Shown here piece by piece: positions 46,788-64,000 of a stretch of DNA of 64,000 bases (positions are counted from its first letter, which is position 1; each line of letters opens with the position of its first letter). Both the position numbers and the translations under genes were made by a program. The notes below the pieces were generated by a model. That model made no database searches, was not told the origin of the DNA, and saw only the letters and a program-made list of their open reading frames with translations. The DNA lies in contig JBBQZX010000014.1 in the NCBI GenBank assembly GCA_038207335.1, positions 65,186-129,185 of the forward strand, written 5' to 3'. This stretch comes from Chthoniobacterales bacterium (lineage in GTDB: Bacteria > Verrucomicrobiota > Verrucomicrobiia > Chthoniobacterales > Chthoniobacteraceae).

Positions 46788-48566
46788 TTATCCCAGCCGC
46801 GCCGCCAGTCCGCGCTCCGCGTCCTCGACCGTTCGCCCCTCCACGAGCACACGCTTCATCTGCCGCTTCCCGTCCTTCATCGCGAAGACGATCTCGAACG
46901 CCGCGGTCGATTCCTCCATCGCGGTGCTCCACGACTTCGACTCCACCTTCTCCGCGTTCTTCGCGAGCCACTCGCCGAGTTCCGCCTCGCTGCTCGCCGA
47001 CTCGCGCCAGAATGCCAGCCCGTCGCAGGCCAATTCCCGGAACCGCGCGACCACGAAATCGCGCTCCAAAAACGCCAGCAGGTTGCCCGCCTTCGGCCCC
47101 GCCTCGCGATCCAGCAGCACGCGATAAATCGCCTTGAACCCAAGCCCCTGATCGATCGGCGTCATCCGCGCCACCTCGAAAATCTTCGACTGCAGCGCGT
47201 CATCCTCCCACGTCGTGTCGCCGAGTTCATCCGCGAGCTTTTGTAAAAATGCGCGCTGCGTCTGCGACAGCTCACTCGCGCGCGCCGGCAGCGTTTCCTG
47301 AAGCCGCGTCTTCTCTTCCTCGCCCGCGTAATTTTCCACCCACAGCTTCGCCGACGCGATCCGCCGGTCGAGATGCCGTCGCTCGATTTCCGTCAGCGGC
47401 GAGCCTTTGCGCTTCTCGATTTGCTCCACCACATCGAGATGGGGCATCTGCACGAGCGCGGCGACGAGTTGGAAGTTCGCGGTGAAATACGCGCCCTCCG
47501 GCGTCAGCTCGCAGAGCCGATAGACACAGGCTTCGTCGGCATTCGCGAGACCCGTCGTCGCGCGCAATTGATACCGGTCGAACTCATTGAACAGCTTGAT
47601 GATCCCCTCCTCATGCACGTCGAAATTCACCGGCGAATTCGGCTTTGTGCGAATCATCAAAAACCGCAGCACCTCCGGCGGCAGCAAATCCGCCATGTCG
47701 CGCGCGCTCGCGCCGACGCCGCGCGAAGAACTCATCTTCGCGCCGCCGACGAGGAAAAACTCGTAAGGCACATTCAGCGGCGGCTCCTTTTGAAAAATCG
47801 CGCGCACACAAGCCGCCGACACATCGCGAGAACCGCCCTTTGTCGAATGGTCTTTCCCCGCGCCCTCGATCGTCACTGGGAAGCTCACCCACTTCGCCAC
47901 CCATTCGAGTTTCCACGGCAGCTTTCCGCGCCCGTCGAACGGCGAAACTTTCCCCTCATGTCCGCAGCCGCGCGCCCACTTCACCATGTCCGGCCGGCAG
48001 CGATAGGACACCTCGCACCCGTCGTACGCGAAGACCTCCGTCGTCCCGATGCGCCCGCACTTCTCACACACCGTCTGGAATGGAAACCAAGTCTCCGCCC
48101 GCTCCGAATTGCTCACCTCCTTGTAAACGCGACGCACCGTCGGTGCCGCGCGCAGGATCGTGTCGATCGCCTCGTTGAACTTCCCGCTGCGATAAATATC
48201 CCGCATCCGATACTTCTCCACGCGCACGCCGAGTTCCTCGAAAACCTCGAAGAACTCCGCGATGTAATGCTCCGCCATGTCGCTCGCGGTCGAGCCATCC
48301 GGCGGCGGCACATTGCAAAGCGGCTGCCCGAGATACTGCTCGAAATGCGCCCCCTTCCCCGCCGGAATTTCATCGAGCGGATCGAAGTCATCGACCCCGA
48401 AAAGGTAACGCGCCTCGATGCCTTTCTCCCGCAGCGTGCGGAAGATCGCATCGTGAATGAGCACCCCGCGCATCGCGCCGACATGCACGCGGCCCGACGG
48501 CGTCTTCGAGTCATTGATGATCTGCGCGCCGGTGCAGCGCCCGGCGATTTCTTCAGTCCAGAACAT
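46788..48566 (-). CDS. lysS: Lysine--tRNA ligase, class I
   Basis: MFW..., KTPSGRVHVG (HIGH-type), DDFDPL, CEKCG zinc motif, GKLPWKLEW, EGAGKDH, KMSSS, GPKAG. Confidence 0.93.
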   Translation of the reverse strand: MFWTEEIAGRCTGAQIINDSKTPSGRVHVGAMRGVLIHDAIFRTLREKGIEARYLFGVDDFDPLDEIPAGKGAHFEQYLGQPLCNVPPPDGSTASDMAEHYIAEFFEVFEELGVRVEKYRMRDIYRSGKFNEAIDTILRAAPTVRRVYKEVSNSERAETWFPFQTVCEKCGRIGTTEVFAYDGCEVSYRCRPDMVKWARGCGHEGKVSPFDGRGKLPWKLEWVAKWVSFPVTIEGAGKDHSTKGGSRDVSAACVRAIFQKEPPLNVPYEFFLVGGAKMSSSRGVGASARDMADLLPPEVLRFLMIRTKPNSPVNFDVHEEGIIKLFNEFDRYQLRATTGLANADEACVYRLCELTPEGAYFTANFQLVAALVQMPHLDVVEQIEKRKGSPLTEIERRHLDRRIASAKLWVENYAGEEEKTRLQETLPARASELSQTQRAFLQKLADELGDTTWEDDALQSKIFEVARMTPIDQGLGFKAIYRVLLDREAGPKAGNLLAFLERDFVVARFRELACDGLAFWRESASSEAELGEWLAKNAEKVESKSWSTAMEESTAAFEIVFAMKDGKRQMKRVLVEGRTVEDAERGLAARLG

Positions 48567-48571
48567 CCTCG

Positions 48572-49435
48572 CTACTCCTTCGGGATCGTCCACATCCGCT
48601 TCGACACGACTTCCTGCACCACCACCTGATCCGCGCGCAGATCGATCACTTTATACGTCGCCCCTTTTTCGCTCGGCCAGGTGAATTCCTCGCCCTGCCG
48701 CACCGTCATCGTCGTGCCGTCCGCGGAGGTCAGCACCGCGCTCGTCGCCGCGCTTTTCGACGTCAGGTCTTTCACCAAAACAACCTTTTCCTTCGTCGTC
48801 GGATTCTCCAGTTCCACCCGCGAGAGGTCCACCGGCGTCCCCGTCTTATCGATCACCGCGTGGCGCTCCGTCACCTTCTCCACCTTCATCCCGCCGATGC
48901 TGTCGCCGACAGACAAGCTCTCCACTTTTTCCTCACCGTCTGTGGTCCGAATTTTCGCCGTGCGTCCCGACACCGATTGCAGGACGAGCGGCACGCGCAC
49001 CTCCGCGTATTTCTTCAGTCGCATGACTTTGTGAATTCCAGGTCGCGAATTCGGATCGAGCGGGTTCGTGTCCGCCATGAATTCATCGCGATTCGTCGCT
49101 CCATCGCCGTCGGGGTCGGCGTCGAGCATCGTCGGGTCGTTGAGGTCGAGGCTGTATTTCTTGAACCACGATTCGTAAGCGCGATCCGACGCGAGCAATT
49201 CCGCGGGAACGTCCGACACAGCAGGATCGACAGCAGCCGCCTCCCTCGCCGCGACGGTCGTGGGTTGATCGGTGGAAGGTGCCGCATCGGCAACCGGTGC
49301 AGACGTCACGGCGGGCTCATCTGCTGCCGCCGTCGCATCCGCATTCGCAGGCTCTACGGCAGGCTTTTTGTGGCACGCGGAGAGCGAGGCAGCGGCGAGA
49401 AAAAGTGCGGTGAAACGGCAGGCGAACGAATTCAT
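48572..49435 (-). CDS. Lipoprotein with a thrombospondin-type-3-like Ca-binding motif
   Basis: Lipobox SLSAC; DPDGDGATNRDEFMADTNPLDPNS; beta-rich C-terminal region. Confidence 0.7.
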   Translation of the reverse strand: MNSFACRFTALFLAAASLSACHKKPAVEPANADATAAADEPAVTSAPVADAAPSTDQPTTVAAREAAAVDPAVSDVPAELLASDRAYESWFKKYSLDLNDPTMLDADPDGDGATNRDEFMADTNPLDPNSRPGIHKVMRLKKYAEVRVPLVLQSVSGRTAKIRTTDGEEKVESLSVGDSIGGMKVEKVTERHAVIDKTGTPVDLSRVELENPTTKEKVVLVKDLTSKSAATSAVLTSADGTTMTVRQGEEFTWPSEKGATYKVIDLRADQVVVQEVVSKRMWTIPKE

Positions 49436-49468: not shown

Positions 49469-52189
49469 TCAACTCCCGCCCAAGGGCTCACCGGACTTGA
49501 TTTTTTCGAGGTCGAAAAGCTGTGCTTCGATTCCGAGATATCGTTCCGGGTGGCACGTCAAAATCACGATTTGCAGGCGCTGCGAGAGTTCGACGAGAAG
49601 CTGCAAAATGCGCGTCAGCCGCGCGGCATCTGTCGCGATCAACACGTCATCGAGCACGACCAATTGCCGCTCCCCGGCGGCGAGCACCTGTGCCAGCGCG
49701 AGCCGCACCGCGAGATGCACCTGCTCCTGCTCGCCACCGGAGAGATTGTCGAGATCGACGCGGTCCGAATGCGATACAGGCGAGACATGTCCGAGCTGAA
49801 ACGACGGTCCGAGATGAAGCCCACTGAAACGCCGCCCCGCGACACGCTCCACAATCGCCAGCGCGCGCGCCTCCACCGGCGCGCTTACGCTCGCGAGGGT
49901 CTGCGCACGATGCCGCGCGACAGTCTCGTGCAGCAGCTTGATCGCATCGGTCTTCGCCCGCTCGCGCGCAACTTCCGCCTCGATTCGCGCGACGGTTTCA
50001 TCGAGTTCCGCGAGCACCCGATACGGCGCTCCTGCCGCGAGCGTTTGCAGTCGGCCTTTCTCGAACATCTCGTCCCGCGCGCACCGCCCGGCGCTCTCTC
50101 GGATGCCAGCGATCTGCCGCTCGAGATTCTGCACGAGCGGCGCGGGATCGGACGGGATCGCGGTGAGCTTTTCCTCCGCGTTTGCGAGCGCGCCGCCTGC
50201 CGCATCCCACTGTAGCGCGGTTCGCTGGATCGCCGCCGCGCGTGCCGTGTCGTCTAGCCCGTCGGCGGTGAGCAGATCGAGCTGCCGCCGCGTGGAAAGC
50301 AGATGCGTTTTCGCATTCTGCAAATTGTTTTGGCCAAGCGCGACGGACTGCCTCGCCGCGGCGGATTTGAGCTGCGCGTCGTCTCGCGCCAGTTCGGCGG
50401 CGCGGATCGCAGGAGTCGCAGCCTGCCGCACCCTCAGGGTCACGCCGAGCGCGAGCGGATCGGGTGCAACGCTCTCCCACAAAGGATTCGCGGCCAGCGC
50501 GATCTCGACCGTGCGGCGAAGTTTTGCATCGTCTCGAAGCCATTCGTCGCGGCTGCGCGCGCCGAGTTTCGCTGCCAGCGCACCCTCCGCGAGCGCGACG
50601 TTCTGCGTCTGCTGCTTGAGCCGGTCGTGCATTTCCTCCAGCTCCGCGAGATGTGTCGTGCCAAATGCGCGCGTCAATTCCGCAAGATTGCCCACTGCAT
50701 TCTGAACGTCGCGCCTCAGGCTCTCGACTGACCCCGCCGGTCCGCGCGCCTTGATCGTGCCAAAGCCGGGCACCCGGACGACGACCTCCGGCGCGCCCTT
50801 GATTTCCCAGCGTTTACCAGCCGAGAGAGCGCGCTCTCCCGTCTGCTCGGCAGCCTCGACGTGAATCGCTCCGCCGTTCTCTGGCACGAGCGATAGCGTG
50901 ATGAGCGACGCATCGAGCAGGGCCGCCGTCTCAACCTTTTTCGCCACAGCCGTGCGAATCGCTTTCAGCGTTTTCGCATCCGGTGCCACGAGTTTCGCGA
51001 ATTCGGATTTCGCGGATTCATGCGCTGCTGTCGCTGCGTCGATCGCCGCAAGAATCTCACCGCTGCGCTGCAACTCCGTGCGCGCATGCAGGAACCGCTC
51101 GGCGCTCTCGACTCCCGCCCGCAACTCCTCGATTTCCTCGTGCTGCTGTCGCGCCGCGTTCAACGCCGCACCCGCGCCCTCCTCCGCCGCCGTGAGTTCC
51201 GTTGACTGCCTCACCAGCTCTGGGAGTTGCACCGCGAGACGCGCGATCTCCTCCTCGCGGCTCGCCAGCTCGGCGCGTCGTTCGCGGATTTGCGCCAGCC
51301 GCGAATCGAGCTGCGCATGCTCCGCTTGCACGCGCGCCACTTCGCTCACGCGGCGCTCTTTTTCCGCGAGCAGCTCGCGATACTGCACGCCCGCAACGCG
51401 TGCATTTTCGAGCTGCACGGCGGCGGCGCTCTCATCGTGCGCAGCCCGCTGGCAGCGCGCGCGCAGGTCGTCGATGCGGCGGCTTCCTTCTTCAAAATCC
51501 AACAACTTTTGCTCCAAAGCGGGCCGCTCCTGACGCAGACGCTGCAACTCCTCATCGAGTGCGAGCCACGCTGGCGCGCTCGCGCCGCCCCGCATTTTTC
51601 CGCTCTCAGTGAAGCTCTCCAAGTATCGGGCACGAATCGCCAGCTCGACTTCGCCGGATGCCGTATCCGCTGCCTGCACATCCAGCGCGCCGCGGATGCT
51701 CTGGAGCAATCCGCCCGACAGTTCGGCACTCGCGAGCCGGCCCTGCGGCGCCCACAAAATCTGCGCGAGACCCCAATGCTCTTCGCCGCTCAATCCCCGC
51801 CCCGGCTTGGCTCCGCCGAAGATCGCACGCGCCGCCGCATCCGCCGCTTCGCCCTCCGCATGCCGCACAAAAATCCCGTTCTCCATTCTCAAAACCTCCG
51901 CCGCACGGTCACTGTGAAACCGCTTCACGACACGATAATCCGCGCCGCCGTGCGTGAACTCGATCGTCACCGACGGCGCGAGATCGCGCCCCCACGAGCG
52001 GATGCGATCGATCCCTTCGCCCGTCACTTTATACCCATCGAAAAGCCCGCGCCGCAGCGCCTCGAACACCGTCGACTTCCCCGCGCCATTCGGGGCGTGG
52101 ATCACATTCAGGCGCTCGGCGAAAGGGCCGAGCCGGCACGGATTCGCGATGCTGCGCCAGCCCTGGAGTTCGATCGACCTGAGGATCAT
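49469..52189 (-). CDS. SMC/Rad50-like ABC ATPase (YhaN/SbcC-like)
   Basis: Walker A APNGAGKST; long coiled coils; signature LSGGEQEQ; Walker B VVLDD; H-loop TCH. ATG 52189 overlaps the upstream stop codon. Confidence 0.9.
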   Translation of the reverse strand: MILRSIELQGWRSIANPCRLGPFAERLNVIHAPNGAGKSTVFEALRRGLFDGYKVTGEGIDRIRSWGRDLAPSVTIEFTHGGADYRVVKRFHSDRAAEVLRMENGIFVRHAEGEAADAAARAIFGGAKPGRGLSGEEHWGLAQILWAPQGRLASAELSGGLLQSIRGALDVQAADTASGEVELAIRARYLESFTESGKMRGGASAPAWLALDEELQRLRQERPALEQKLLDFEEGSRRIDDLRARCQRAAHDESAAAVQLENARVAGVQYRELLAEKERRVSEVARVQAEHAQLDSRLAQIRERRAELASREEEIARLAVQLPELVRQSTELTAAEEGAGAALNAARQQHEEIEELRAGVESAERFLHARTELQRSGEILAAIDAATAAHESAKSEFAKLVAPDAKTLKAIRTAVAKKVETAALLDASLITLSLVPENGGAIHVEAAEQTGERALSAGKRWEIKGAPEVVVRVPGFGTIKARGPAGSVESLRRDVQNAVGNLAELTRAFGTTHLAELEEMHDRLKQQTQNVALAEGALAAKLGARSRDEWLRDDAKLRRTVEIALAANPLWESVAPDPLALGVTLRVRQAATPAIRAAELARDDAQLKSAAARQSVALGQNNLQNAKTHLLSTRRQLDLLTADGLDDTARAAAIQRTALQWDAAGGALANAEEKLTAIPSDPAPLVQNLERQIAGIRESAGRCARDEMFEKGRLQTLAAGAPYRVLAELDETVARIEAEVARERAKTDAIKLLHETVARHRAQTLASVSAPVEARALAIVERVAGRRFSGLHLGPSFQLGHVSPVSHSDRVDLDNLSGGEQEQVHLAVRLALAQVLAAGERQLVVLDDVLIATDAARLTRILQLLVELSQRLQIVILTCHPERYLGIEAQLFDLEKIKSGEPLGGS

Positions 52190-53277
52190 TTGCCGGCGAA
52201 ATGATAAAGCGCGAGCAGCGCTTGCGTTGCGTTTTCGCAGGCCGGGCCTTCGGCAAGCTGCCGCAACTCGCGCGCCGCTTCTCGCACCGGACCGGACGGC
52301 AGGCTGTCGATCCACGCGTCATCGCTCGGGCTCGGGCGCAGCGTGGCTGTGTCCATTTTCGAGAAAAGAAAACGCGCGCGGGCAATCTCATCGATGCGTG
52401 AAAGCTCACCCATTTCCTCCGCCAAAAGCAGGCCGCCGATGCGCAGGTCGAGCAGCCGTGCCTCGGGGCGGTCGAGAGCTTCGATCTCCTCCCGCAGTCG
52501 TCTCAAATCGCCGGGCTGCGCGATTTCGACCTCGCGCTTTTCCCATACGAGCCCGCCAGTCTGGAGCGGCGTGATGCGCGGCACGGCGCCGGGCGCGTCG
52601 ATCTCCACCACCAGCGCGTGACCACTGTCGCGTTCCCCAAATTTTGTGGGCTCATGTGAACCGCAGTAGGCCATGCGCACCGCGCCTCCGGCGTCGGGAT
52701 AGCTCGCGAATGAATGCCAGTGGCCGATCGCGAGGTAGTCGAGTCCCCCGCGCGCAGCAGCGTCGCGCGCGATCGGGTAATCCGGCTCCTCGACCGGCAC
52801 GCCCTGTACGGTGCCGTGCGCGAGCCCGATGCGGATTCCCGCGGCAGTGCGCGCGTCGATCCAGAGCGTCGGGTCTTCAAAGGAATGCTTCTCTCGCAGC
52901 GGGCTAGGGAAAAGCGTGCCACCAGGAATTTCGAGCGGACCCGCCTCCGCGCAGAGCGTGATATTTTTTCGCGAAGCCCACGCCGGATGCTCCCACACCG
53001 AGCCTGGTCCGAGCGGATCGTGATTGCCGGGGATCACGAAAATCGGGCCATTGAAACTGCCCGCGATATCCGCGACCTGCTGCACCAGCACGCGATCGAC
53101 GCCATGATGCTCGAACGAATCGCCCGCGACCAAAATGAACTCCGCGCAGTGCTCACCCGCGAGCGCGATGACCCGCCGCAAAGCAGCAAGCCGCGCGGCT
53201 CGCACCGCGGCTCCCGCGGCGCCGACGTGGGCGGCTTTCATGCCCATCTGCCAGTCACCGGTATGGAGAAATTTCAT
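52186..53277 (-). CDS. Mre11/SbcD-like metallophosphoesterase nuclease (YhaO-like)
   Basis: HTGDWQMG, AGDSFE, PGNHD, AHG, GHWH. Confidence 0.92.
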   Translation of the reverse strand: MKFLHTGDWQMGMKAAHVGAAGAAVRAARLAALRRVIALAGEHCAEFILVAGDSFEHHGVDRVLVQQVADIAGSFNGPIFVIPGNHDPLGPGSVWEHPAWASRKNITLCAEAGPLEIPGGTLFPSPLREKHSFEDPTLWIDARTAAGIRIGLAHGTVQGVPVEEPDYPIARDAAARGGLDYLAIGHWHSFASYPDAGGAVRMAYCGSHEPTKFGERDSGHALVVEIDAPGAVPRITPLQTGGLVWEKREVEIAQPGDLRRLREEIEALDRPEARLLDLRIGGLLLAEEMGELSRIDEIARARFLFSKMDTATLRPSPSDDAWIDSLPSGPVREAARELRQLAEGPACENATQALLALYHFAGK

Positions 53278-53334: not shown

Positions 53335-56300
53335 TTAAAAATGCGGAATGAACTGAAGCAGCGAGCCAAGCCCGAGACTGCCGGTCGAGTAGAGGATCGC
53401 GCGGACAAATGGCTGCTCCCAGATCGGCGCGAGCGCACCTTTTCTCATCCCCTCCACCTCCCCGATCGTCTGGTCATACATCTCGAGCTTTGTTTTCACC
53501 CAATCTTTTCCACCCCGCTTCGCGCCGCTTTCATCGAACGGCCCGGCGGCATTTTCGCCCTCGATCGACAGGCTGCCGGCCGCTCCGACCGCGGCCATTT
53601 CATCGACCGGCGCGAGCGCCTGGATCTCCTCGAGTCGCTCGCGGCGCAGCCCCTTCAGCACGATCTCGCGCGCATCGTCGGCGGCACGCGCCAGAGTCAG
53701 CGCGCAGTAGAGCGCGCACGCGAAATTCACGCTGTAGAGCACGATGATCCCGACCGGAAGCGACCAGTCGTCGAAGTAGCTGCTCATTGACCCGACGAGC
53801 AGCGCCGATGTGATGAATGGGTAGTAGATCAGTTTCGACACCGGTTCGCTGCGCATCCCGATCAGCCGGATATCCAGCAGGTGCGCCAGGGCGTTCGGTG
53901 AGAGGAGATTCTTTCGGCGGCTGCGCTCCCGCGATTTAGCCGGCCACTCCGTCCGGTATCGGCTGAATAGCCGGATGAAATCGCGCTGGAGCCGGATCGC
54001 ATCGACGCAGACAAATGAAAGGAGTGTGCAGAGAAATGTGCAGACCACGAATGTGCAGCCCATCGCGCGGATGACGCCGACGCCGCGCACCGGCGGAAGT
54101 CCGTGGGGGAACCACGGCCCCAGCGCCAGGGCGCATGCAAATACGAGGACTGTGATGGGGAATGAACGAAGGAGCCGCATCAATGGACTGAGACGCGCCA
54201 AATATTCGGCCCAGATGACGCGTGCATCGATCTTCTGCGAGCGCCCGCGCACGCGCAGCGCATGGGTCTTCCACCGCATCCCGGCCCGGAGTGTTTTCCA
54301 AAAACCGCGGTTTTTGGGCGGGATGCGGACAGCGAGGTCGAACTCCTCTTTCACCTTGCGCAGATTCTTCCGCAGCGTCGCGTGCGCCCGGAAGCCGAAG
54401 TGGACACACAACAGCCCGACGACGATTTGCAGCCCCATGCTCGGCCATGCGCTCACGCCGTCCATCAGCGCAAAAACCTCGCCATCCTCCGACGTCATCC
54501 GGCTCCCGATCCACACCGCCGCGGCCGCTGTCGCCACGATCACCGGTACCGCGACCACGCTGCGCTCCCGCGCGACTCGCAGATTTCTCCGCGCCGTCTC
54601 GCCAAAACCCGCCCGCCGCGTCGCACGATAATCCATCGCCTCCACTCGCTCCGGAGGGAGCCGTGCGCCGCATTTGTAGAAAAAGTAGAGCGTCAGGATC
54701 AGCAGGCAAGCGAGCACGAGGCCGGCAACGATCCGTGGCGCATCCCGCCAGCTTCCCGCCCATTCCGGCCGCCACCACCCGGCCCGATCCGGCCGCACCG
54801 GCTGCAGTACGCGCGCGTCGGTCGGATCGCCTCCGTCGCAGCTCAGATCCACGGCGCCCGAGCGGCCGATCTCGAAAATGCGCGGTTTCGTCCGCTCGAA
54901 AAAATCCGCCGGAATCAACCGCGGCGCGCTATCGAGCCGCAGCAGATGCTGTGTGCCGACGAACACCGCCGATTGGTATCCATCTCGAAAAGGCGCGATC
55001 TTTCCCTGGAGCGAGGGCGCAACCGACAGGCCAAATGGCGACGCCACGATCAGGTTGTGGCACGCCGGCCACTCCTCTCGCATCGTCATTCGCGCGTCGA
55101 GATTCGTCGTGAAAAACAGCACGCCCGGGAATGCCTTCCGCAGCGCGCGCAGCACCATGAGCTTGTCGTACATGTCGCTTCCCAGCACGCCGATCGCCTT
55201 GAATCCGCCGCGCCCGTCCCGCTTCAGTTCCTCATTTTGCGCCAGCAGCGAGACGCTGAGCCGCCGCAGGTAATCCGACTGATCCTCTCCCTCCGTACGC
55301 TCCTCCGGCGCCGATTTCTTCGATCCGTCTCCCGCCTCGCCGCCGCCCGATTTTTCCCCCTCCGCCGAGCGCTTCGGCTGGTCCTCCACGCGCGATTCCG
55401 GCGTGCGGCCATCGATCCCGCGGAGGTAAAAAAATCGCTTCACCCACTGCGTCGGCAGCACCCCGGGCGTGTATTCCAAATCGTCGTAAAATGGATTGCC
55501 GGGCAGCTTGAGTTGATGCGCGAAGGAAAGCGGCAGCGAACGACCGAAAAGCGAGTCCCACTCCGAGACGAGCGCGATCGCTCCCTCCCGCCCGTCGTAC
55601 GGTCCGTTCGGGTTCGCCGTTGGGGACTTGAAATTTCGCCTCCCCAATTCCTCGATGAGTTCACCCAGCATCTGGTCGTCCCGAAAAATCGTTCGCTCGA
55701 AAGTCGCCCCCTCGATTTTGCCCTCGAACTGCGCCTTCAAAGTCGGGCCAAGCTGCACCCGCGGACCCACGCCGATATCCGGCGCACTCCAGAACTCGAA
55801 CAGCCCATCCGGGATCGTCGCCAAGGGCGAAATGAAGTTCGTATTTTTCAGCGGCTTCCCGTCGAAATTCGCAGCTCGCAGTTCTCTCGACATCTTGAGC
55901 AGCCCGTCCGAACTGCTCGGCCCGAGCACGCGCACGTTCACCTTGTCTGGATCCCATTGAAGGCTCGCCGCCAGCTTTTTCAGCGTCGCCAGCGGCGGGT
56001 GATCCGGCAAATCGTCCCGCACCCACAGCACGATCACTTCGCTGATCCCGCCCGCGCGCATCTCCGTCGGCTTTCTCAAAAATTCGCGCCACTGCTCGAA
56101 CGGCACGATGAAGTCCGACGCAGCCTTTTCCACGTCGTCCGGCGTTTTCGCCTCCTCCGCCCCGGGGCACGGTGGGCCTGGGAGGTAGAAGTAACCGATT
56201 CGCTCGCCATCTTGGGGCGCAAAGCGATTCTCCCCGAGCGCGGAAATGACAGCGTGCCGCGTGCGGATTCGTCGCTCCGTGTTCTCGGCATACGGCCCGC

Positions 56301-56655
56301 CGGAGATCAGCACCGGCAGGATTAAGAGCTTACCCCGCGTGTCATTTCCCGACGGCTCGGAGTATTCCTGAATCCGTCTCACAAGCTCAGCTCGCACGTC
56401 CTCCGCCGCCTCGTCGGCATGTCCCTGGCTGCGCTGCTCCGCCGCGTCCGCTGCGGCCCGAAGCGGGTCCTGCCACAGCCGCGCATTCACATTTTGCGAG
56501 GCAAACGTGCGCTGCGAGCGGTTTGGCTTCAGCGCCGGCCGCGAACTCACGATCGGCTCCACGAGCGCCGTGATCCCGCCTGCGATCACCGCGAAAATCG
56601 CCGCGAGATTCATCCACGGGAGATTGAATCCGCCCTTCGAGTCTTGTTCAGCCAT
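53335..56655 (-). CDS. Large hypothetical membrane protein: N-terminal anchor, periplasmic-binding-protein-like domain and about 8 C-terminal TM helices
   Basis: 1106-aa ORF with consistent codon bias; motifs ARLWQDP, VLGPSSS, ISPLAT, FERT...D, IALVSEWDSLFG, YLRGIDG, IGVLGSDMYDKL; hydrophobic segments in the C-terminal 45%. Confidence 0.8.
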   Translation of the reverse strand: MAEQDSKGGFNLPWMNLAAIFAVIAGGITALVEPIVSSRPALKPNRSQRTFASQNVNARLWQDPLRAAADAAEQRSQGHADEAAEDVRAELVRRIQEYSEPSGNDTRGKLLILPVLISGGPYAENTERRIRTRHAVISALGENRFAPQDGERIGYFYLPGPPCPGAEEAKTPDDVEKAASDFIVPFEQWREFLRKPTEMRAGGISEVIVLWVRDDLPDHPPLATLKKLAASLQWDPDKVNVRVLGPSSSDGLLKMSRELRAANFDGKPLKNTNFISPLATIPDGLFEFWSAPDIGVGPRVQLGPTLKAQFEGKIEGATFERTIFRDDQMLGELIEELGRRNFKSPTANPNGPYDGREGAIALVSEWDSLFGRSLPLSFAHQLKLPGNPFYDDLEYTPGVLPTQWVKRFFYLRGIDGRTPESRVEDQPKRSAEGEKSGGGEAGDGSKKSAPEERTEGEDQSDYLRRLSVSLLAQNEELKRDGRGGFKAIGVLGSDMYDKLMVLRALRKAFPGVLFFTTNLDARMTMREEWPACHNLIVASPFGLSVAPSLQGKIAPFRDGYQSAVFVGTQHLLRLDSAPRLIPADFFERTKPRIFEIGRSGAVDLSCDGGDPTDARVLQPVRPDRAGWWRPEWAGSWRDAPRIVAGLVLACLLILTLYFFYKCGARLPPERVEAMDYRATRRAGFGETARRNLRVARERSVVAVPVIVATAAAAVWIGSRMTSEDGEVFALMDGVSAWPSMGLQIVVGLLCVHFGFRAHATLRKNLRKVKEEFDLAVRIPPKNRGFWKTLRAGMRWKTHALRVRGRSQKIDARVIWAEYLARLSPLMRLLRSFPITVLVFACALALGPWFPHGLPPVRGVGVIRAMGCTFVVCTFLCTLLSFVCVDAIRLQRDFIRLFSRYRTEWPAKSRERSRRKNLLSPNALAHLLDIRLIGMRSEPVSKLIYYPFITSALLVGSMSSYFDDWSLPVGIIVLYSVNFACALYCALTLARAADDAREIVLKGLRRERLEEIQALAPVDEMAAVGAAGSLSIEGENAAGPFDESGAKRGGKDWVKTKLEMYDQTIGEVEGMRKGALAPIWEQPFVRAILYSTGSLGLGSLLQFIPHF

Positions 56656-56820: not shown

Positions 56821-59800
56821 CTACAGCGTGTGAAAGCTGGCGTCCGCCGTGATGCCGATCGGACGGAACGCGGCGCCGAGCGTCAGCTTCGTGCCGCCGA
56901 TTTTGAGCGCGCCGATTTCGCCAGAGACGAAGCCGAACTGGTCCATGCCGCCAACCGTGCCCCGCACTTGCCCACCGATCGTGATGCTCGCGATGCGTGC
57001 GACGATGCCTCCAGCCGCGCCGATCGCGGCGTCGTGGCTGTCGCCAAAGTTCACGTTATCGGCGTTCGCGCCCATGCCGCCCGGCAGATCGTCCGCGCCG
57101 AGATTCTGTTTGCCGGCGACGAGATTGCTGGCGATCCACTCGCGTCCGACGCTGACTGCACCGATCTGCGCGTGCCCGTCGGTCGGTTGCAGGAAAAAGT
57201 CGAACCCGCCGAGGATATTCCCGTATTCCACACTGCCGCCGATCTTGATGCTCTGGATGACCAAATCGTTCGCGCCGACAGAAGTAGTAACACCTTTCGC
57301 CGCAATGCTGACGGCATGACCCGCGGTGCCGACGATGCTTCCGCCGATGACGACTGGGCCGAGCGCGCTGCCCGAGGTGATGAAGCCGCTTCGGTCACCC
57401 ACGCCAGAGCGAATGGAGCCGCCGATCGTGACTTTCCTGATCTCTTGAGTGTTGCTGATGATCGACCCGGAGACAGTGCCCGCGCCGCCGACCAAGTCAC
57501 CATGGATGCTTACATTCCCAATCGCCAACCCTGCTGCGATTTGCCCGTCGAGCACTGCAGAGCCACCTCGCACGGAGCCGCCGACCGATACACCGATGAG
57601 ATTCGCAGATGCGAAAATGGTCGCGGTTTCGCTTCCAGATCCTCCGACGATATCGCCCCCGATGCTCACGGGACCGATCGAGCCGCTGAGACTGAAGATC
57701 GCACCGGCGCGATTCGCCGAGCCGCCGCGCAGCGAGCCGCCGATCGTAACGGATTTGATCGGTGCCGCACCGACGTCGATGAACCCGCTATTGAGCCCCG
57801 AGCCACCGATGAGGTCGCCGCCAATCTTGACGGCACCGAGGCCCGTGCCGCCGGTGATCTGCCCGGCAAGCGTTGCGCCCCCGCCGACGAAATTGCGGCC
57901 AATGCTTACCGAGTCGATTTGCGCGTTCGTCAAAATCGACGCGGAGGAAGCGCCGGTGCCGCCGCGCACATCGACCACGATTTTCACCGCGCCGATGTCG
58001 CCCACCGAAAGAAGCGAGCCGGAAAATTCATTCGATCCACCGATGATCGAACCGCCGACCGTGACCGCTCCAGTGGTGCCGTTGCTGCGAACGACACCCG
58101 AGAACTGGTCGGTCAAAATCCCGCTGCCGCCGCGAATGTCGTGCCCGATTTTCACCGCGCCGAAGCTCGCGCCGTTGGCGGAAATTTCGCCGCTGTCCGG
58201 CCCCGTCCCGCCGAGCAGTGAACCGCCGATGCTGACTGCGCCGATCTTCCCGGTCGCCAGGACGACGCCGGAGAAATTGCCCGCGCTGTTCCCGCCGATC
58301 ACGCTGCCGCCAATTTTGACGTTGCCGATGCCGCCATTCGAGAAGACCTCGCCGGTGAATCCGCCAGTGCTCCCGCTGCCGCCGCGGATCGAGCCGCCGA
58401 CGCTGATATTGCCGATATCGGTCATCATGCTGCGTGAGTCGATCAGGCCGGAATTCAATCCACTGCTGCCGACGACGTCACCGCCGATCACGATGGAGCC
58501 GATGCCGTTGGCAGAAATGCGACCACTGTTGTCGCTCGCGCCTCCGATCACGGAGCCTCCGATTTTCAGCGAACCGAGCGTCCCGGCGATATCGATCGAG
58601 GTGCCTCGCACATCGGTCTGGATCGTTGCCGAGCCGACCGCACCTCCGAGCGAACTGCTCAAATCCGGCGCGCCAGTGTCGAGCCCAAATGCGCCGAGCG
58701 ATGCGACACTGAGGCTTTTCAAAGCCACGTCCGAAGGTGAGCCAACTGCCACATCCACCGAGCCAAGGTCACCGTGAATCATGATGGTACCTAACGCGGC
58801 GGTCGCCTGAATCGAGCCGACGCTTGCGAAGCCGTCGCCGTTGCCCGCGCGTTTTGCGGCCACGGAAATATTCGTCCCGGCGGCGTCCGCGACGCCCGTG
58901 AGGTCGATCGTCCGAAGCAAGCCGTTCGTCTGAACGAGGATGGTGGAGACGTTTGCGGCGGTCAGAATGGGCCGGGAAAATTTCACCGTCACGAGGTCGC
59001 CGTCTGCGTCGGTGTAGGTCGCGGTGGTCGTGTTCACAAACTCAGCGGGCGCGAAAGTCGGCGCGTCCGGCATGTTCACCGAACCCGCATCGACGATGTG
59101 GAAATCGCCGGTGATCCCGAGCGGCGCGATGTCCGTGGCGACGATCGCGATGGAGCTGCCGCCGACTTTGATCGACTTGATTTGCTCCGCCATGAAGCGG
59201 AACGAATCCGTCCCGCCAAACGTCCCGCGCACCTGTCCGCCGATCGTGATGTTGCCGATCGCGCTGTCGAGATTCGGAGCACCCGCGCCGGATGTGGAAA
59301 AGGTGTCGTCGTCCGTCCCCGCCATGCCGTCCGCGCCTAGGACCGTGCCAGCAGCAATGCGGCTCGTGATCCAGTCGCCGCCGATCTTCACGCTGCCGAT
59401 TCCCGCGTCGGGATTCCCTGCTGTGATCGCGGTGGAGTAGTTGTAACCCGCGAGGATTTGCGCGAATTCCGCACGTCCGCCGACCGCGATCGACTTGATC
59501 GCCGTGTCCGTCTTGCGCTGCACTTCGTTGCCGAAAGCAAGGATCGTCGCGGAATTTGTGGCGTTGCCGACGAGGCTGCCGCCGATCTTCACGGAGCCGA
59601 TTTCAAACATCGAAGTGATCGAGCCGCTTTTCAGCAGCGGATTCGCGCCGACCTTCGTCCCGGCGAAGACCGACCCGCCGACCACGACACTGCCGATGTG
59701 CTGCGCATCGATCGCGCCGGTGAGCTCCACGACCAGTCCCGCGCGACCGTCGCCACCGAGGATGTCGCCCCCGATCGTCACGGAGCCCAGCCCCATCGTG

Positions 59801-61356
59801 GTTTCAATGGCCCCGCTGGATGAGCCCAGACCGCCCACGAGCGAGCCGCCGATGCTCACCGAGCTCACGCGCCCCTGTGAGCGAATCTCCCCCGAATTGT
59901 CGCCCGATCCCCCGCGAAGATCGCCGCTGATTTTCACGGAACCGAGTCCATTCGGCGCATAAATCTGTCCTGCCCGATCGTTCGAGCCGCCGACCACCGA
60001 GCCGCCGATCGTGATGCTCTTGAAAACATCCGAACTCCGAATCTGCGCGTTGTGCGAGCCACTGTCGCCGCGCACGTCGCCGCCGATTTTCACCGAGCCC
60101 GCATTGCCCAGCGCGAACGCCGCCGAGTAGTCGCCGGACGAGCCCACGACCGAACCGCCGACACTCAGCGATTTCACCGTGCCGTCCACTTTCACCGCCG
60201 CCGAATAGCTGCCGCTGGCACCGGTGACATCGCCGCCGACCTTGATCCCACCGACGTTCCCAGTCACGAGGATCATCCCGCTGTTGCCATTCGATCCGCC
60301 GATGAGCGACCCGCCGACCGTGATCGATTTGATCGGTCCATGGCTGTCGATGATGCCTGAAAATGTCGCGCTATTTGCGCCAGTGCCGCCGACCACATCG
60401 TGCGCGATTTTCACCGAGCCGATCCCGCCCGCGCCGAATGCGATGATCTCGCCGCTGTCCGGTCCGGTGCCGCCGATCAGCGAGCCGCCGACCGTGACCG
60501 ATTTGATCTTCCCGTCGCTGTCGATCACCCCGGAAAAGGCATCCGTGCCCGTGCCGCCGATCACGTCACCGCCGACCTTCACCGAGCCGATGTCGCCAAA
60601 TGCGATCACCTCGCCGCTATCCGCACCCGTGCCGCCGATGATCGAGCCACCGATCGTCACCGAGCCGATGCCAGCTTGGGCGAGGGGATTCGACGCCTCA
60701 ATCATGCCCGACTCCGCACCACTGCCACCGCGCAGATCGCCGCCGATCTTCACCGAGCCGATCGCGAGCGCGGAAACGCACCCGCTCTCGCTATAACTGC
60801 CGCCGATCACCGAGCCGCCGACCGCGAGCGATTTGAGCATCCCACCGACCGCGATCTGAGCATCGCGGATGTCACCTGCGATTGCGATCTTCCCCACCCG
60901 CCCGCCGAGGCTGCTGACGAGAGTCGTCGCGCCCGTCGAAAGCCCAAACGCCCCGAGGGACGCCACGCTCAGGTTTTTCAGGCCGGTATTGCCATCCCCC
61001 GCGATGACCGCGCCGAGATCGCCGCGGACCTTCACCGTCCCGAGCGCGAGGAGCGGTGCGGAGATTTGCCCCACATTCGCAAACCCATCGCCATCCCCCG
61101 CCAGCTTTGCAGTCACCGAGATATTCGTGCCCGCCGCCGCAGCGATCCCCGTCAAATTGATCTGCGCCAGCCCAGCGCCATTTTCCACGAGCACCGTCCC
61201 CACGTTCGCCGCAGTCAGGATTCCCTTTGAAAATTTCACCGTCACGAGATCGCCGTCCGCGTCCGTGTAAGTGCCCGTCGTCGCGCTGACAAACACCGCC
61301 GCCGGAGCGATCCGAGCTTCGAGGATTTCGATCGATGAACCGGAGCGAAGTTTCAT
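56821..61356 (-). CDS. Giant secreted Gly-rich repeat protein with an LEPR-XLL-like leader and an internal duplication
   Basis: Leader IEILEARIAPA; two units starting T.TYTDADGDLVTVKFS; dozens of (I/V)GSV.IGG(S/D)..GG.G..SG.I repeats. Confidence 0.85.
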   Translation of the reverse strand: MKLRSGSSIEILEARIAPAAVFVSATTGTYTDADGDLVTVKFSKGILTAANVGTVLVENGAGLAQINLTGIAAAAGTNISVTAKLAGDGDGFANVGQISAPLLALGTVKVRGDLGAVIAGDGNTGLKNLSVASLGAFGLSTGATTLVSSLGGRVGKIAIAGDIRDAQIAVGGMLKSLAVGGSVIGGSYSESGCVSALAIGSVKIGGDLRGGSGAESGMIEASNPLAQAGIGSVTIGGSIIGGTGADSGEVIAFGDIGSVKVGGDVIGGTGTDAFSGVIDSDGKIKSVTVGGSLIGGTGPDSGEIIAFGAGGIGSVKIAHDVVGGTGANSATFSGIIDSHGPIKSITVGGSLIGGSNGNSGMILVTGNVGGIKVGGDVTGASGSYSAAVKVDGTVKSLSVGGSVVGSSGDYSAAFALGNAGSVKIGGDVRGDSGSHNAQIRSSDVFKSITIGGSVVGGSNDRAGQIYAPNGLGSVKISGDLRGGSGDNSGEIRSQGRVSSVSIGGSLVGGLGSSSGAIETTMGLGSVTIGGDILGGDGRAGLVVELTGAIDAQHIGSVVVGGSVFAGTKVGANPLLKSGSITSMFEIGSVKIGGSLVGNATNSATILAFGNEVQRKTDTAIKSIAVGGRAEFAQILAGYNYSTAITAGNPDAGIGSVKIGGDWITSRIAAGTVLGADGMAGTDDDTFSTSGAGAPNLDSAIGNITIGGQVRGTFGGTDSFRFMAEQIKSIKVGGSSIAIVATDIAPLGITGDFHIVDAGSVNMPDAPTFAPAEFVNTTTATYTDADGDLVTVKFSRPILTAANVSTILVQTNGLLRTIDLTGVADAAGTNISVAAKRAGNGDGFASVGSIQATAALGTIMIHGDLGSVDVAVGSPSDVALKSLSVASLGAFGLDTGAPDLSSSLGGAVGSATIQTDVRGTSIDIAGTLGSLKIGGSVIGGASDNSGRISANGIGSIVIGGDVVGSSGLNSGLIDSRSMMTDIGNISVGGSIRGGSGSTGGFTGEVFSNGGIGNVKIGGSVIGGNSAGNFSGVVLATGKIGAVSIGGSLLGGTGPDSGEISANGASFGAVKIGHDIRGGSGILTDQFSGVVRSNGTTGAVTVGGSIIGGSNEFSGSLLSVGDIGAVKIVVDVRGGTGASSASILTNAQIDSVSIGRNFVGGGATLAGQITGGTGLGAVKIGGDLIGGSGLNSGFIDVGAAPIKSVTIGGSLRGGSANRAGAIFSLSGSIGPVSIGGDIVGGSGSETATIFASANLIGVSVGGSVRGGSAVLDGQIAAGLAIGNVSIHGDLVGGAGTVSGSIISNTQEIRKVTIGGSIRSGVGDRSGFITSGSALGPVVIGGSIVGTAGHAVSIAAKGVTTSVGANDLVIQSIKIGGSVEYGNILGGFDFFLQPTDGHAQIGAVSVGREWIASNLVAGKQNLGADDLPGGMGANADNVNFGDSHDAAIGAAGGIVARIASITIGGQVRGTVGGMDQFGFVSGEIGALKIGGTKLTLGAAFRPIGITADASFHTL

Positions 61357-61493
61357 AGCCGCGGACCCTGCGACGCCCAACACGCCCCGTCAAATTCCGC
61401 AACGTGAATTTTTCAGACGTCCGCTCGAAGCCCACGCGCGAGTCGCCTCACTTCTCGGGGTGCCGGGAAAATTTGGAGCTTCCGGGACACCGG

Positions 61494-61873: not shown

Positions 61874-61899
61874 GTGAAGCTCAGTGAAGGTATAGCGGG

Positions 61900-62014
61900 G
61901 CCTGGCTGCCACAAGCTCAGCGACAGGCGGAGCGGGCGCGGCTCCTGCGCGGCGGTTCTGCGGGAAGCAGCTCCCGTGACGCCCGGAGCAGTTCGCTGCA
62001 GCGCATGGTTAGGC
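61900..62014 (-). repeat. attC site, degenerate (R' core GTTAGGC changed to GCCAGGC)
   Basis: 115 bp; minus strand GCCTAACCATGCGCTGCAGCGAAC...GTCGCTGAGCTTGTGGCAGCCAGGC, aligning without gaps to the ends of the other copies. Confidence 0.8.
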
Positions 62015-62046
62015 ATTGCGGTCATTTGCGAATTCGTAGCCAGGAC

Positions 62047-62214
62047 TCAATCATCCGCTTGCAGTCCGAAGAACCATTTCAGGAAGAAAAATGGCTCGCC
62101 TGTGTAGAAGCCGAACGCGACGAGGAGCACGGCGGCAACAGCCAGAGATAGAATTGCGTATCGGACCGGCTTCATCCGAGCTTGCGCAAAGTTCATGTGT
62201 GCGATGGGGTTCAT
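62047..62214 (-). CDS. Integron cassette gene: 55-aa single-TM peptide
   Basis: Manual translation MNPIAHMNFAQARMKPVRYAILSLAVAAVLLVAFGFYTGEPFFFLKWFFGLQADD*; fills the space between two attC sites; below the ORF-track length cutoff. Confidence 0.6.
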   Translation of the reverse strand: MNPIAHMNFAQARMKPVRYAILSLAVAAVLLVAFGFYTGEPFFFLKWFFGLQADD

Positions 62215-62251
62215 GTTTTATTGTTTTGTCGTCTCGGCAGGCGCGAGCGAC

Positions 62252-62366
62252 GCCTAACGACCCCAAGCTCAGCGACTGCGGAGGGCGGCGCGGCTCCTGC
62301 GCGGCGGGTCTGCGGGGAGCAAGTGCCGTGACGCCCGGAGCAGTTCGTTGCTCCGCATGGTTAGGC
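62252..62366 (-). repeat. attC site (L'' box degenerate)
   Basis: 115 bp; GCCTAAC...GTTAGGC ends; L'' reads GGAGCAAC instead of GCTGCAGC. Confidence 0.88.
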
Positions 62367-62372
62367 CACGGT

Positions 62373-62852
62373 TCATTCCTCGCCATCGTAATAATCCAGC
62401 GCATCCGAACGGATAAGTCTTCGCTCGGGTATCGGCACGCTCCACTTGTTGCTGTCTGGATAGTGGTATGACTCGCCAATCGGATTGTCCGCCACGACAT
62501 AAAGAACCAAGTCCTGCGTGCCGTCATTGAAAACCTGGTGCGGCTCGCCCGGCCTGAAAATGAATGCGTCGCCAACCTCAATCTGAGCAGTTCCGTCTTG
62601 ATGCCGGACGACGCCAGTGCCGGAAATCACATGGTAGAACTCCCACTGCGCGCTATGCGAATGATACGGATACGGAGTCTTCCCCGGTGGGATGCGGCAA
62701 ATCTCAACATCAAAGGGATGGCGCTCGTTCAAGTCGGTGGAGTCGGGCTTGCGTCCCAACTCCTCTGAAATCTCCTTGCCAGCGCCGACAAACTTACCCT
62801 TCGGCGAGGACCAAGGAATCTCAGCAATATTTGCAGTGTTGACCTTGTGCAT
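62373..62852 (-). CDS. Integron cassette gene: cupin-domain protein
   Basis: PYHSHSAQWEFYHVISGTG and FRPGEPHQVFN cupin motifs; YHYPDSNK. Confidence 0.9.
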   Translation of the reverse strand: MHKVNTANIAEIPWSSPKGKFVGAGKEISEELGRKPDSTDLNERHPFDVEICRIPPGKTPYPYHSHSAQWEFYHVISGTGVVRHQDGTAQIEVGDAFIFRPGEPHQVFNDGTQDLVLYVVADNPIGESYHYPDSNKWSVPIPERRLIRSDALDYYDGEE

Positions 62853-62867
62853 GACGTGCGGCTAGTC

Positions 62868-62991
62868 GCCTAACGACCCCAAGCTCAGCGACGGCGGAGC
62901 ACGGCGCGGGAGCTGCATGGTGGGTGGCAAGGCGGCGGCGGAAGCAGCTCCCGTGACGCCCGGAGCAGTTCGCTGCAGCGCATGGTTAGGC
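62868..62991 (-). repeat. attC site
   Basis: 124 bp; R'' GCCTAAC, L'' GCTGCAGC, L' GCTGAGC, R' GTTAGGC. Confidence 0.9.
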
Positions 62992-63010
62992 GGCATGGTT
63001 TTTGACTCGC

Positions 63011-63238
63011 TCATTTCATTCTCCGAAAACCTGAAATGAGTAGATAGCGCAAAACACCGATGCCGCCAATCGAAAGAATCAAACCTAAAACCACCAACCC
63101 CTTTCGGAACACGCTATCGTGCCCATCACCCAACCAAAGCAAAAGCACCCCGATCAAGCGCACGGCTAGCCCTATCCCAAACCACTTCCACTTCCGCCGT
63201 TTTTCCATCGCGGTGAGATGACAAGGTGCTGCTTCCAT
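63011..63238 (-). CDS. Integron cassette gene: small 2-TM membrane protein
   Basis: KWKWFGIGLAVRLIGVLLLWLG...GLVVLGLILSIGGIGVLRYLL; start at ATG 63238 or 63208; lies between attC sites. Confidence 0.7.
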   Translation of the reverse strand: MEAAPCHLTAMEKRRKWKWFGIGLAVRLIGVLLLWLGDGHDSVFRKGLVVLGLILSIGGIGVLRYLLISGFRRMK

Positions 63239-63253
63239 ATTGAGTGTAATGCC

Positions 63254-63369
63254 GCCTAACGACCTCAAGCTCAGCGACTGCGGAGGGCGGCGCGGCTCCT
63301 GGCGTGGCGGGTCTGCGGGGAGCAGGAGCCGTGACGCACGGAGCGGTTCGCTGCAGCGCATGGTTAGGC
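63254..63369 (-). repeat. attC site
   Basis: 116 bp; same R''/L''/L'/R' boxes. Confidence 0.9.
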
Positions 63370-63391
63370 GCTTCGGTTGTTGGAGTTTGAT

Positions 63392-63829
63392 TCATCCGGT
63401 GTCGCTACGGACACGGTCTCGAACTCGCTGGTCGATCTCGCGAGTAATCTGTTCGAGTCGCTGAAGTTGTTGGTCGGCAGGTAAATCGTGAGGAAGCGAG
63501 GAAAGCGTTTCGGTGGTGAACTCGTGAAGCAACTCGGCGCAACGAAGGCAAGTGAAGTGATAACGCTGCTGGCGGCTGGAAACCTCCCAACTCTGATTCA
63601 TGCCACCGCCCATCGCCTCGCCGCCGCAATAGAAACAGCGCGCGCCGTCTAAAGTCGGAAGGTCGAAGCCGGATTGCGTGGCATGGGTGCGGATGCAAAC
63701 CTCGCAAAGGTCGAGAGTGGTTTGCTGGCCGTTGATGATCTGGCACAGATGGTTGTTCGCTGGTCTCGTGCCACACATCTGGCAGAGCCGATCCGAACTC
63801 GGGGAAGATGAGAAAGTAGAGGCAGCCAT
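63392..63829 (-). CDS. Integron cassette gene: McsA-like multi-CxxC zinc-binding protein
   Basis: LCQMCGTRPANNHLCQIINGQQTTLDLCEVC, CFYC, CLRC and a C-terminal helical segment. Confidence 0.7.
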   Translation of the reverse strand: MAASTFSSSPSSDRLCQMCGTRPANNHLCQIINGQQTTLDLCEVCIRTHATQSGFDLPTLDGARCFYCGGEAMGGGMNQSWEVSSRQQRYHFTCLRCAELLHEFTTETLSSLPHDLPADQQLQRLEQITREIDQRVRDRVRSDTG

Positions 63830-63860
63830 TTTCGTTCGTTCACGGGAGACGCGCAGAAGC

Positions 63861-64000
63861 GCCTAACGACCCCAAGCTCAGCGACAGCGGAGGGCGGCGC
63901 GCTGGCTGCGGAAAGGTGGCTGGGGCAGGATGGGCGAAGGCGGCGGGATGGTGAGCAGCAGCCAGCGTGACGCCCGGAGCAGTTCGCTGCAGCGCATGGT
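63861..64000 (-). repeat. attC site, cut by the window edge
   Basis: GCCTAACGACCCCAAGCTCAGCGAC...GCAGTTCGCTGCAGCGCATGGT at the end of the window. Confidence 0.88.

What the first reader, a model, noticed from the sequence alone, without database searches (positions are those of the whole stretch)
53335..56655. Possible bacterial Venus-flytrap plus multi-TM receptor (class C GPCR-like architecture)
Seen: after an N-terminal anchor, a roughly 600-aa soluble region contains, in order, VRVLGPSSSDG, FISPLAT, FERTIFRDDQM and IALVSEWDSLFGRSL, followed by about 8 hydrophobic helices with basic loops and no recognisable kinase, cyclase or ATPase output domain. Known: GPxSS, ISxxAT, FxRTxxxD and (V/I)AxxxxxDxxG in this order are hallmarks of type I periplasmic binding proteins (LivJ/ANF-receptor family), which are also the ligand domain of class C GPCRs and the iGluR N-terminal domain. 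Inferred: an uncharacterised ligand-gated receptor, channel or transporter family. The GPCR comparison concerns architecture only, not homology.
Basis: partly seen in the sequence, partly recalled or inferred. Interest (0 to 1): 0.72.

Follow-up and report, generated by a model that had tools for sequence, protein, structure and literature searches.

The report
Flytrap sensor on insect-receptor-like channel
This intact bacterial gene belongs to a widespread unnamed family whose protein is predicted to join an outward-facing 'Venus-flytrap' ligand-binding domain to a membrane domain shaped most like insect smell and taste receptor channels, so it is likely a new kind of bacterial ligand-gated channel or sensor rather than a GPCR look-alike.

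The parts
53335..56655 (-). Whole gene, 1106 aa: anchor helix + periplasmic type I flytrap + linker helix + 7TMIC-like membrane domain
   Evidence: model pLDDT 80.2, pTM 0.79; single copy in the genome
56560..56622 (-). N-terminal hydrophobic helix TM0 (res 12-32), predicted membrane anchor
   Evidence: family hydropathy; helix 14-31 in the model at pLDDT 55-62; that it is uncleaved is inferred
56464..56484 (-). Conserved ARLWQDP element (res 58-64) between anchor and flytrap
   Evidence: R59 and P64 77 of 77, D63 76 of 77, W61 77 of 77; role unknown
54823..56328 (-). Type I periplasmic-binding-protein (Venus flytrap) domain, res 110-611, with family-specific insertions
55903..55935 (-). Motif 1 (res 241-251), lobe-1 Ser249
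55816..55836 (-). Motif 2 (res 274-280), lobe-1 Thr280
55669..55701 (-). Motif 3 (res 319-329), hinge-region Arg321/Asp326
55534..55578 (-). Motif 4 (res 360-374), lobe-2 Glu365/Asp367 and aromatic 370
54667..54738 (-). Extra linker helix TMx (res 640-663), predicted to return the chain from periplasm to cytoplasm; lies outside every OR/GR alignment
   Evidence: OR/GR alignments start at model residue 48-57 = protein 683-692
53344..54600 (-). 7TMIC-like domain, res 686-1104: S0 686-697, S1 699-720, S2 737-772, S3 824-848, S4 859-899, S5 920-955, S6 968-1026, S7a 1050-1068, S7b 1082-1104
   Evidence: helices; fold matches; the S-names are my assignment by order and by comparison with the BmGr9 boundaries in PMC11100771
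53344..53412 (-). Predicted pore helix S7b (res 1082-1104) ending in Q1101-F1102
   Evidence: Q/E/D at 1101 in 68 of 69; pLDDT only 47-57

Best explanation
The gene encodes a membrane protein predicted to carry a periplasmic type I Venus-flytrap domain on a seven-helix domain folded like insect odorant/gustatory receptor channels, and it likely works as a ligand-gated ion channel. Shown by calls: the gene, the family, the fixed two-domain fusion and the conserved residues. Predicted by models: both folds and the topology. Inferred steps: (1) a small ligand, most likely an amino acid or similar, binds between the lobes at S249/T280/D326/Y370-type positions and closes the flytrap; (2) because the flytrap is tied to the membrane at both ends (TM0 and TMx) and sits over three short conserved outer loops, closure moves the S5-S7 bundle; (3) four subunits, joined through the cytoplasmic S4-S7a anchor as in insect receptors, surround a pore lined by S7b, and the outer gate at Q1101/F1102 opens; (4) the output is ion flux, which would explain why there is no enzyme output domain and no conserved partner gene.
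Confidence: 0.45

Rival explanations
1. Same two folds, but a non-conducting receptor: flytrap closure changes the cytoplasmic anchor surface and signals to a soluble partner encoded elsewhere.
For: Conserved basic residues on the cytoplasmic parts of S4-S6 (R935, R990 at 90% or more in A1); the GR pore motif is only partly kept; function is unknown for all non-insect 7TMICs.
Against: No neighbour recurs across phyla in 81 loci; the S7a-S7b linker and S7b are among the most conserved segments and end in the gate-like Q/E/D.
Confidence: 0.25
2. The membrane domain is an unrelated helical bundle that only resembles OR/GR by convergence; the protein is a flytrap receptor or permease of a new fold.
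For: TM-score under 0.4, rmsd about 6 A, E 0.1; designed repeats at similar Z; no sequence link.
Against: Two programs rank OR/GR first over the whole seven-helix span; topology, loop asymmetry, split last helix, linker length and terminal Q/E/D agree without use of the fold search.
Confidence: 0.15
3. A single-gene uptake system: the flytrap captures a solute and hands it to its own membrane domain for transport.
For: The closest flytrap structures are ABC-transporter binding proteins; binding-protein/permease fusions exist (general knowledge).
Against: No transporter family in more than one of 69 members, none convincing; no conserved ATPase or permease neighbour; the ATPase downstream is SbcC/Rad50-like and lies beside 0 of 170 homologue loci.
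Confidence: 0.12
4. A bacterial counterpart or ancestor of class C GPCRs (flytrap plus GPCR-type 7TM).
For: Flytrap before a multi-helix domain; mGlu receptors top the whole-protein Foldseek list at E 6e-7; if 1082-1104 is not membrane-spanning, seven helices follow the flytrap.
Against: Those hits have TM-score about 0.21 and rmsd above 30 A and rest on the flytrap; the two GPCR chains listed for the membrane model score probability 0.06-0.08, TMq 0.10-0.11; no cysteine-rich linker; bacteria lack heterotrimeric G proteins (general knowledge).
Confidence: 0.03

Closest known systems
7TMIC superfamily: insect gustatory receptors (BmGr9 8uvu/8vc1, Gr43a 8jm9/8zdz, Gr64a), odorant receptors (Orco 6c70, MhOr5 7lic, AaegOR10, AgamOR28)
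   Different: A 500-residue periplasmic flytrap and two extra helices (TM0, TMx) are fused in front; insect receptors bind ligand inside the membrane bundle. TM-score under 0.4, identity 5-13%, TY of the motif not kept, long first inner loop.
Prokaryotic Bac7TMIC/Arch7TMIC (Himmel, Moi, Benton 2023, 10.1101/2023.08.30.555482)
   Different: Their structure screen kept only prokaryotic hits with exactly 7 predicted TM segments; this protein has 9. The preprint's main text has no 'fusion', 'periplasmic' or 'ligand-binding'. Their Dryad sequence set and the final journal version were not seen, so a family member could sit there unremarked.
Trypanosome GRL1 (MORN repeats + 7TMIC; PMC9998090)
   Same: A 7TMIC fold fused to a second domain; called there the first such fusion.
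   Different: That partner domain is cytoplasmic and not a ligand-binding flytrap.
LivJ/LivK-type binding proteins and the flytraps of mGluR, GABA-B, T1R, ANP receptor and iGluR N-terminal domains
   Different: No Pfam hit; about 150 residues of insertions; tethered to the membrane at both ends; 9-15% identity.
Class C GPCRs
   Same: Flytrap outside, multi-helix domain in the membrane.
   Different: Membrane domain matches OR/GR channels instead; no cysteine-rich linker; N-terminal anchor helix; predicted C-terminus outside.
Ionotropic glutamate receptors and bacterial GluR0
   Same: Design principle: a periplasmic-binding-protein module gating a channel (works-like analogy).
   Different: There the gating module is a type II binding protein split by a potassium-channel-like pore (general knowledge); here a continuous type I domain precedes an unrelated pore fold.

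Membership tests
Type I periplasmic binding protein (LivJ/ANF-receptor-like flytrap) | Two-lobed alpha/beta type I fold | tested here: met
Type I periplasmic binding protein (LivJ/ANF-receptor-like flytrap) | Pocket motifs in register | tested here: met
   four motifs align with 13 PF13458 proteins (hhalign 49%, E 1.7e-4) and are conserved in 72-77 of 77; weak alignment
Type I periplasmic binding protein (LivJ/ANF-receptor-like flytrap) | Hit to the Pfam families of the group (PF13458, PF01094) | tested here: not met
   0 Pfam families at E<=1: same fold, not a member of those sequence families
Type I periplasmic binding protein (LivJ/ANF-receptor-like flytrap) | Binds a ligand between the lobes | not testable with these tools
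   needs a binding assay
7TMIC superfamily | Seven membrane helices in the domain | tested here: met
   S1-S7b in residues 699-1104; the whole protein has two more
7TMIC superfamily | Domain N-terminus inside, C-terminus outside | tested here: met
   positive-inside bias supports this topology in 69 of 69; a prediction, and the last helix has the weakest signal (1.1 against 0.43)
7TMIC superfamily | Inner loops longer than outer loops | tested here: met
   medians 67/53/55 against 22/16/13
7TMIC superfamily | Long S4, S5, S6 reaching into the cytoplasm | tested here: met
   helices of 41, 36 and 59 residues, each with one hydrophobic and one charged part
7TMIC superfamily | Split S7 (cytoplasmic S7a, membrane S7b) | tested here: met
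   charged helix 1050-1068, 13-residue linker, hydrophobic helix 1082-1104; S7b pLDDT 47-57
7TMIC superfamily | TM-score about 0.5 or more to known members | tested here: not met
   Foldseek TMt 0.35-0.39 against 0.47 or more for accepted members; so I call the domain 7TMIC-like and do not file it as a member
7TMIC superfamily | Linked to other 7TMICs by iterated sequence profiles | tested here: inconclusive
   one-round profile finds no OR/GR in PDB sequences and no DUF3537/7tm Pfam; Bac7TMIC sequences were not at hand
7TMIC superfamily | GR pore motif TYhhhhhQF in S7b | tested here: inconclusive
   hhhhh+Q/E/D in 56 of 69; with T/S at the first and F/Y/W at the last place 23 of 69 (0 of 212 controls); Tyr replaced by Gly. 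The motif is poorly kept outside insects anyway
7TMIC superfamily | Tetramer with S7b-lined pore that conducts ions | not testable with these tools
   four whole membrane domains exceed the size limit; needs structure and electrophysiology
Class C GPCR | Extracellular Venus flytrap | tested here: met
Class C GPCR | Cysteine-rich domain between flytrap and first helix (absent in GABA-B; recalled) | tested here: not met
   no column with 30% or more Cys between residues 612 and 640
Class C GPCR | GPCR-type 7TM fold | tested here: inconclusive
   two class A GPCR chains listed at probability 0.06-0.08; OR/GR rank far higher; no direct pairwise alignment to a class C 7TM was run
Class C GPCR | G-protein coupling | not testable with these tools
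   bacteria have no heterotrimeric G proteins (general knowledge)
iGluR / GluR0 | Binding domain interrupted by an M1-P-M3 pore | tested here: not met
   the flytrap is continuous (110-611) with no hydrophobic segment inside it
ABC / TRAP / TTT uptake systems | Recognised permease domain and ATPase or partner genes | tested here: not met

The most novel reading that the evidence does not exclude
Probability: 0.4. Interest if true: 0.9.

Novelty: new variant of a known kind. Interest (0 to 1): 0.72.

Why it matters
Function in the 7TMIC superfamily is known almost only for insect receptors; whether the prokaryotic relatives are channels, and what gates them, is open. A fused, soluble flytrap makes that directly testable: screen ligands on the isolated domain, then record from the full protein. 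If true, bacteria hold a second binding-protein-gated channel design beside GluR0, common in soil Chthoniobacterales and in nitrifying Nitrospira (35 of 121 genomes of that class sample), and the insect receptor pore could be driven by an external sensor domain, which is of use for biosensor design. If the fold match is convergent, it remains a large conserved orphan receptor family.

Tried and rejected
Four-copy complex of residues 858-1106 (S4-S7b): no answer, score 0.00, the fragment's own fold uncertain, outside the tool's calibration; no evidence either way. Sequencing runs: no RNA holder listed; says nothing on expression. No GPCR chain appears among the 50 rows of the VIA searches of the membrane model; absence from a list does not exclude a family. 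Sequence searches of PDB with the protein and two profiles gave only chance rows (the GPCR-lysozyme fusion rows have E 0.25-0.5 and match the lysozyme junction). ESM Atlas: nearest clusters are unnamed hypothetical proteins; the membrane part alone gave about 410-aa Actinomycetota clusters at 0.75-0.77, a lead below the tool's mark, not followed. Stand-alone membrane domains: one 333-aa protein on a 2.5-kb contig in two searches limited to 8000 candidates; none in viral contigs. The profile search of 50%-cluster representatives could not be run, so very distant stand-alone relatives remain untested. Conserved partner genes: an apparent link to downstream genes came from one N-bridged and one read-through ORF; the SbcD/SbcC-like pair behind the gene is beside 0 of 170 homologue loci. 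Defence role: no PADLOC hit for the protein. Riboswitch: none in the window or in 18 homologue loci, none of them from Brocadia. No promoter-like site and no terminator excess. The careful tree did not finish; only the quick tree on 47 of 78 rows was read. Look-up of earlier findings by sequence gave nothing, so that the five earlier notes are this same family rests on their wording.

Full report
Observation. The interval is one intact reading frame on the minus strand, 1106 aa from ATG at 56655 to the stop at 53335, with GC like its surroundings. The protein has no Pfam, NCBIfam or PADLOC family and no PDB sequence relative. It is single-copy in its 5.17-Mb, 94.7% complete genome.

Family. 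A protein search gave 458 relatives at E<=0.001 among 8000 scored candidates; the 120 listed carry no Pfam domain, and those with a name are called hypothetical. I aligned 114 of the 120 (six left out as likely near-copies; A1). In the genome collection 513 of 583 pattern matches were relatives; the 80 returned come from Chthoniobacterales and other Verrucomicrobiota, Nitrospira, Tepidisphaeraceae/Phycisphaerae, Burkholderiales-type betaproteobacteria, Methylococcales, a Zetaproteobacterium, a delta proteobacterium and Leptospirales. The closest (54%) is a Chthoniobacteraceae bin, so the window is probably from that group (inference). Distribution is patchy: 5 of 401 genomes in the own phylum (one is the own genome, one a weak 88-aa frame), 8 of 61 relatives, 5 of 400 in the class of Rugamonas (includes one unpublished genome, G730), 35 of 121 in the class of Nitrospira. 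Only a few candidates per genome were scored, so these are floors. Some genomes hold two or three paralogues. A quick tree of 47 of 78 membrane domains groups mostly by phylum (5 label changes against a shuffled mean of 17.9), which fits an old family with losses and duplications; deep branches are poorly resolved.

The fusion is constant. All ten regions fetched around diverse members hold both domains in one frame. Of 80 metagenome loci retrieved with the membrane domain alone, 69 are fused in frame, 9 are cut by the contig end, 2 are frame-broken and none is membrane-only. One Zetaproteobacterium has the two domains as adjacent frames (L076). Neighbour genes recur only within Nitrospira or within Chthoniobacterales. 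The gene therefore behaves as a self-contained unit.

GPCR comparison. mGlu receptors head the whole-protein Foldseek list (E 6e-7) with TM-score 0.21 and rmsd 32 A; VIA aligns mGlu4 and GABA-B only over residues 108-624. For the membrane model the two GPCR chains listed score probability 0.06-0.08, and there is no cysteine-rich linker. The analogy is one of outline only.

Mechanism. Most likely (0.45) a ligand-gated ion channel: ligand closes the flytrap, which is tied to the membrane by TM0 and TMx and lies above the conserved outer loops; the motion reaches S5-S7b; four S7b helices open at Q1101/F1102. Gene, fusion and conservation are shown; folds and topology are predicted; ligand, coupling, four-fold assembly and conduction are inferred by analogy. 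Rivals: non-conducting receptor with an unknown partner (0.25), convergent bundle of a new fold (0.15), one-gene transporter (0.12), class C GPCR counterpart (0.03).

Novelty. Both folds are known; the pairing was not found in print in eight full-text searches (listings and abstracts seen, plus passages of PMC12635824 and PMC13466386). The only 7TMIC fusion I found described is the trypanosome MORN fusion. The 2023 prokaryotic structure screen kept only hits with exactly seven segments, which would drop this nine-helix protein; its Dryad data, bioRxiv supplements and final journal version were not seen and could list members. The library lacks most subscription journals. This scan's own notes report what reads as the same family in five other genomes; they agree with my reading but are not independent support, and I did not confirm their sequences. 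Verdict: a real, conserved, undescribed architecture; new variant of a known kind; interest 0.72, rising to 0.9 if flytrap-gated conduction is shown.

Noticed in passing
window 61894-64000: Five copies of a roughly 120-nt repeat (cores 75-94% alike) separate short unrelated genes. The ends look like integron attC sites, so this may be a gene-cassette array (recalled pattern, not tested).
   Followed up: partly
window 56821-61383 (-): 1520-aa Gly/Ser-rich repeat protein just upstream, no convincing Pfam or NCBIfam family; a homologue lies near a paralogue of the gene in a genome of the same genus (L107), the only such case in 170 loci.
   Followed up: partly
window 49469-53277 (-): Metallophosphoesterase plus SbcC/Rad50-like ATPase pair starting 58 nt behind the gene; weak MADS3/LmuB hits for the ATPase; not conserved beside homologues.
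   Followed up: yes
window 46788-48593 (-): Class I lysyl-tRNA synthetase (PF01921, E 3e-88), the less common type in bacteria.
   Followed up: no
L076:7968-12340 (+): In a Zetaproteobacterium the flytrap (1094 aa, with insertions) and the membrane domain (362 aa) are two abutting frames; natural split or assembly error not resolved.
   Followed up: partly
L006:9314-11491 (+) and about 12 other Chthoniobacterales loci: A 725-aa lipoprotein-like di-heme cytochrome c peroxidase/RoxA-like gene follows the family gene in Udaeobacter-type genomes; lineage-specific.
   Followed up: partly
L106:5808-9038 (-): Nitrospira defluvii has a second, divergent paralogue with a shortened S7b region; several Nitrospira genomes hold two copies.
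   Followed up: partly
ESM Atlas hits of residues 695-1106: Two clusters of about 410-aa hypothetical proteins, mostly Actinomycetota, score 0.75-0.77; they could be stand-alone relatives of the membrane domain, but the score is only a lead.
   Followed up: no
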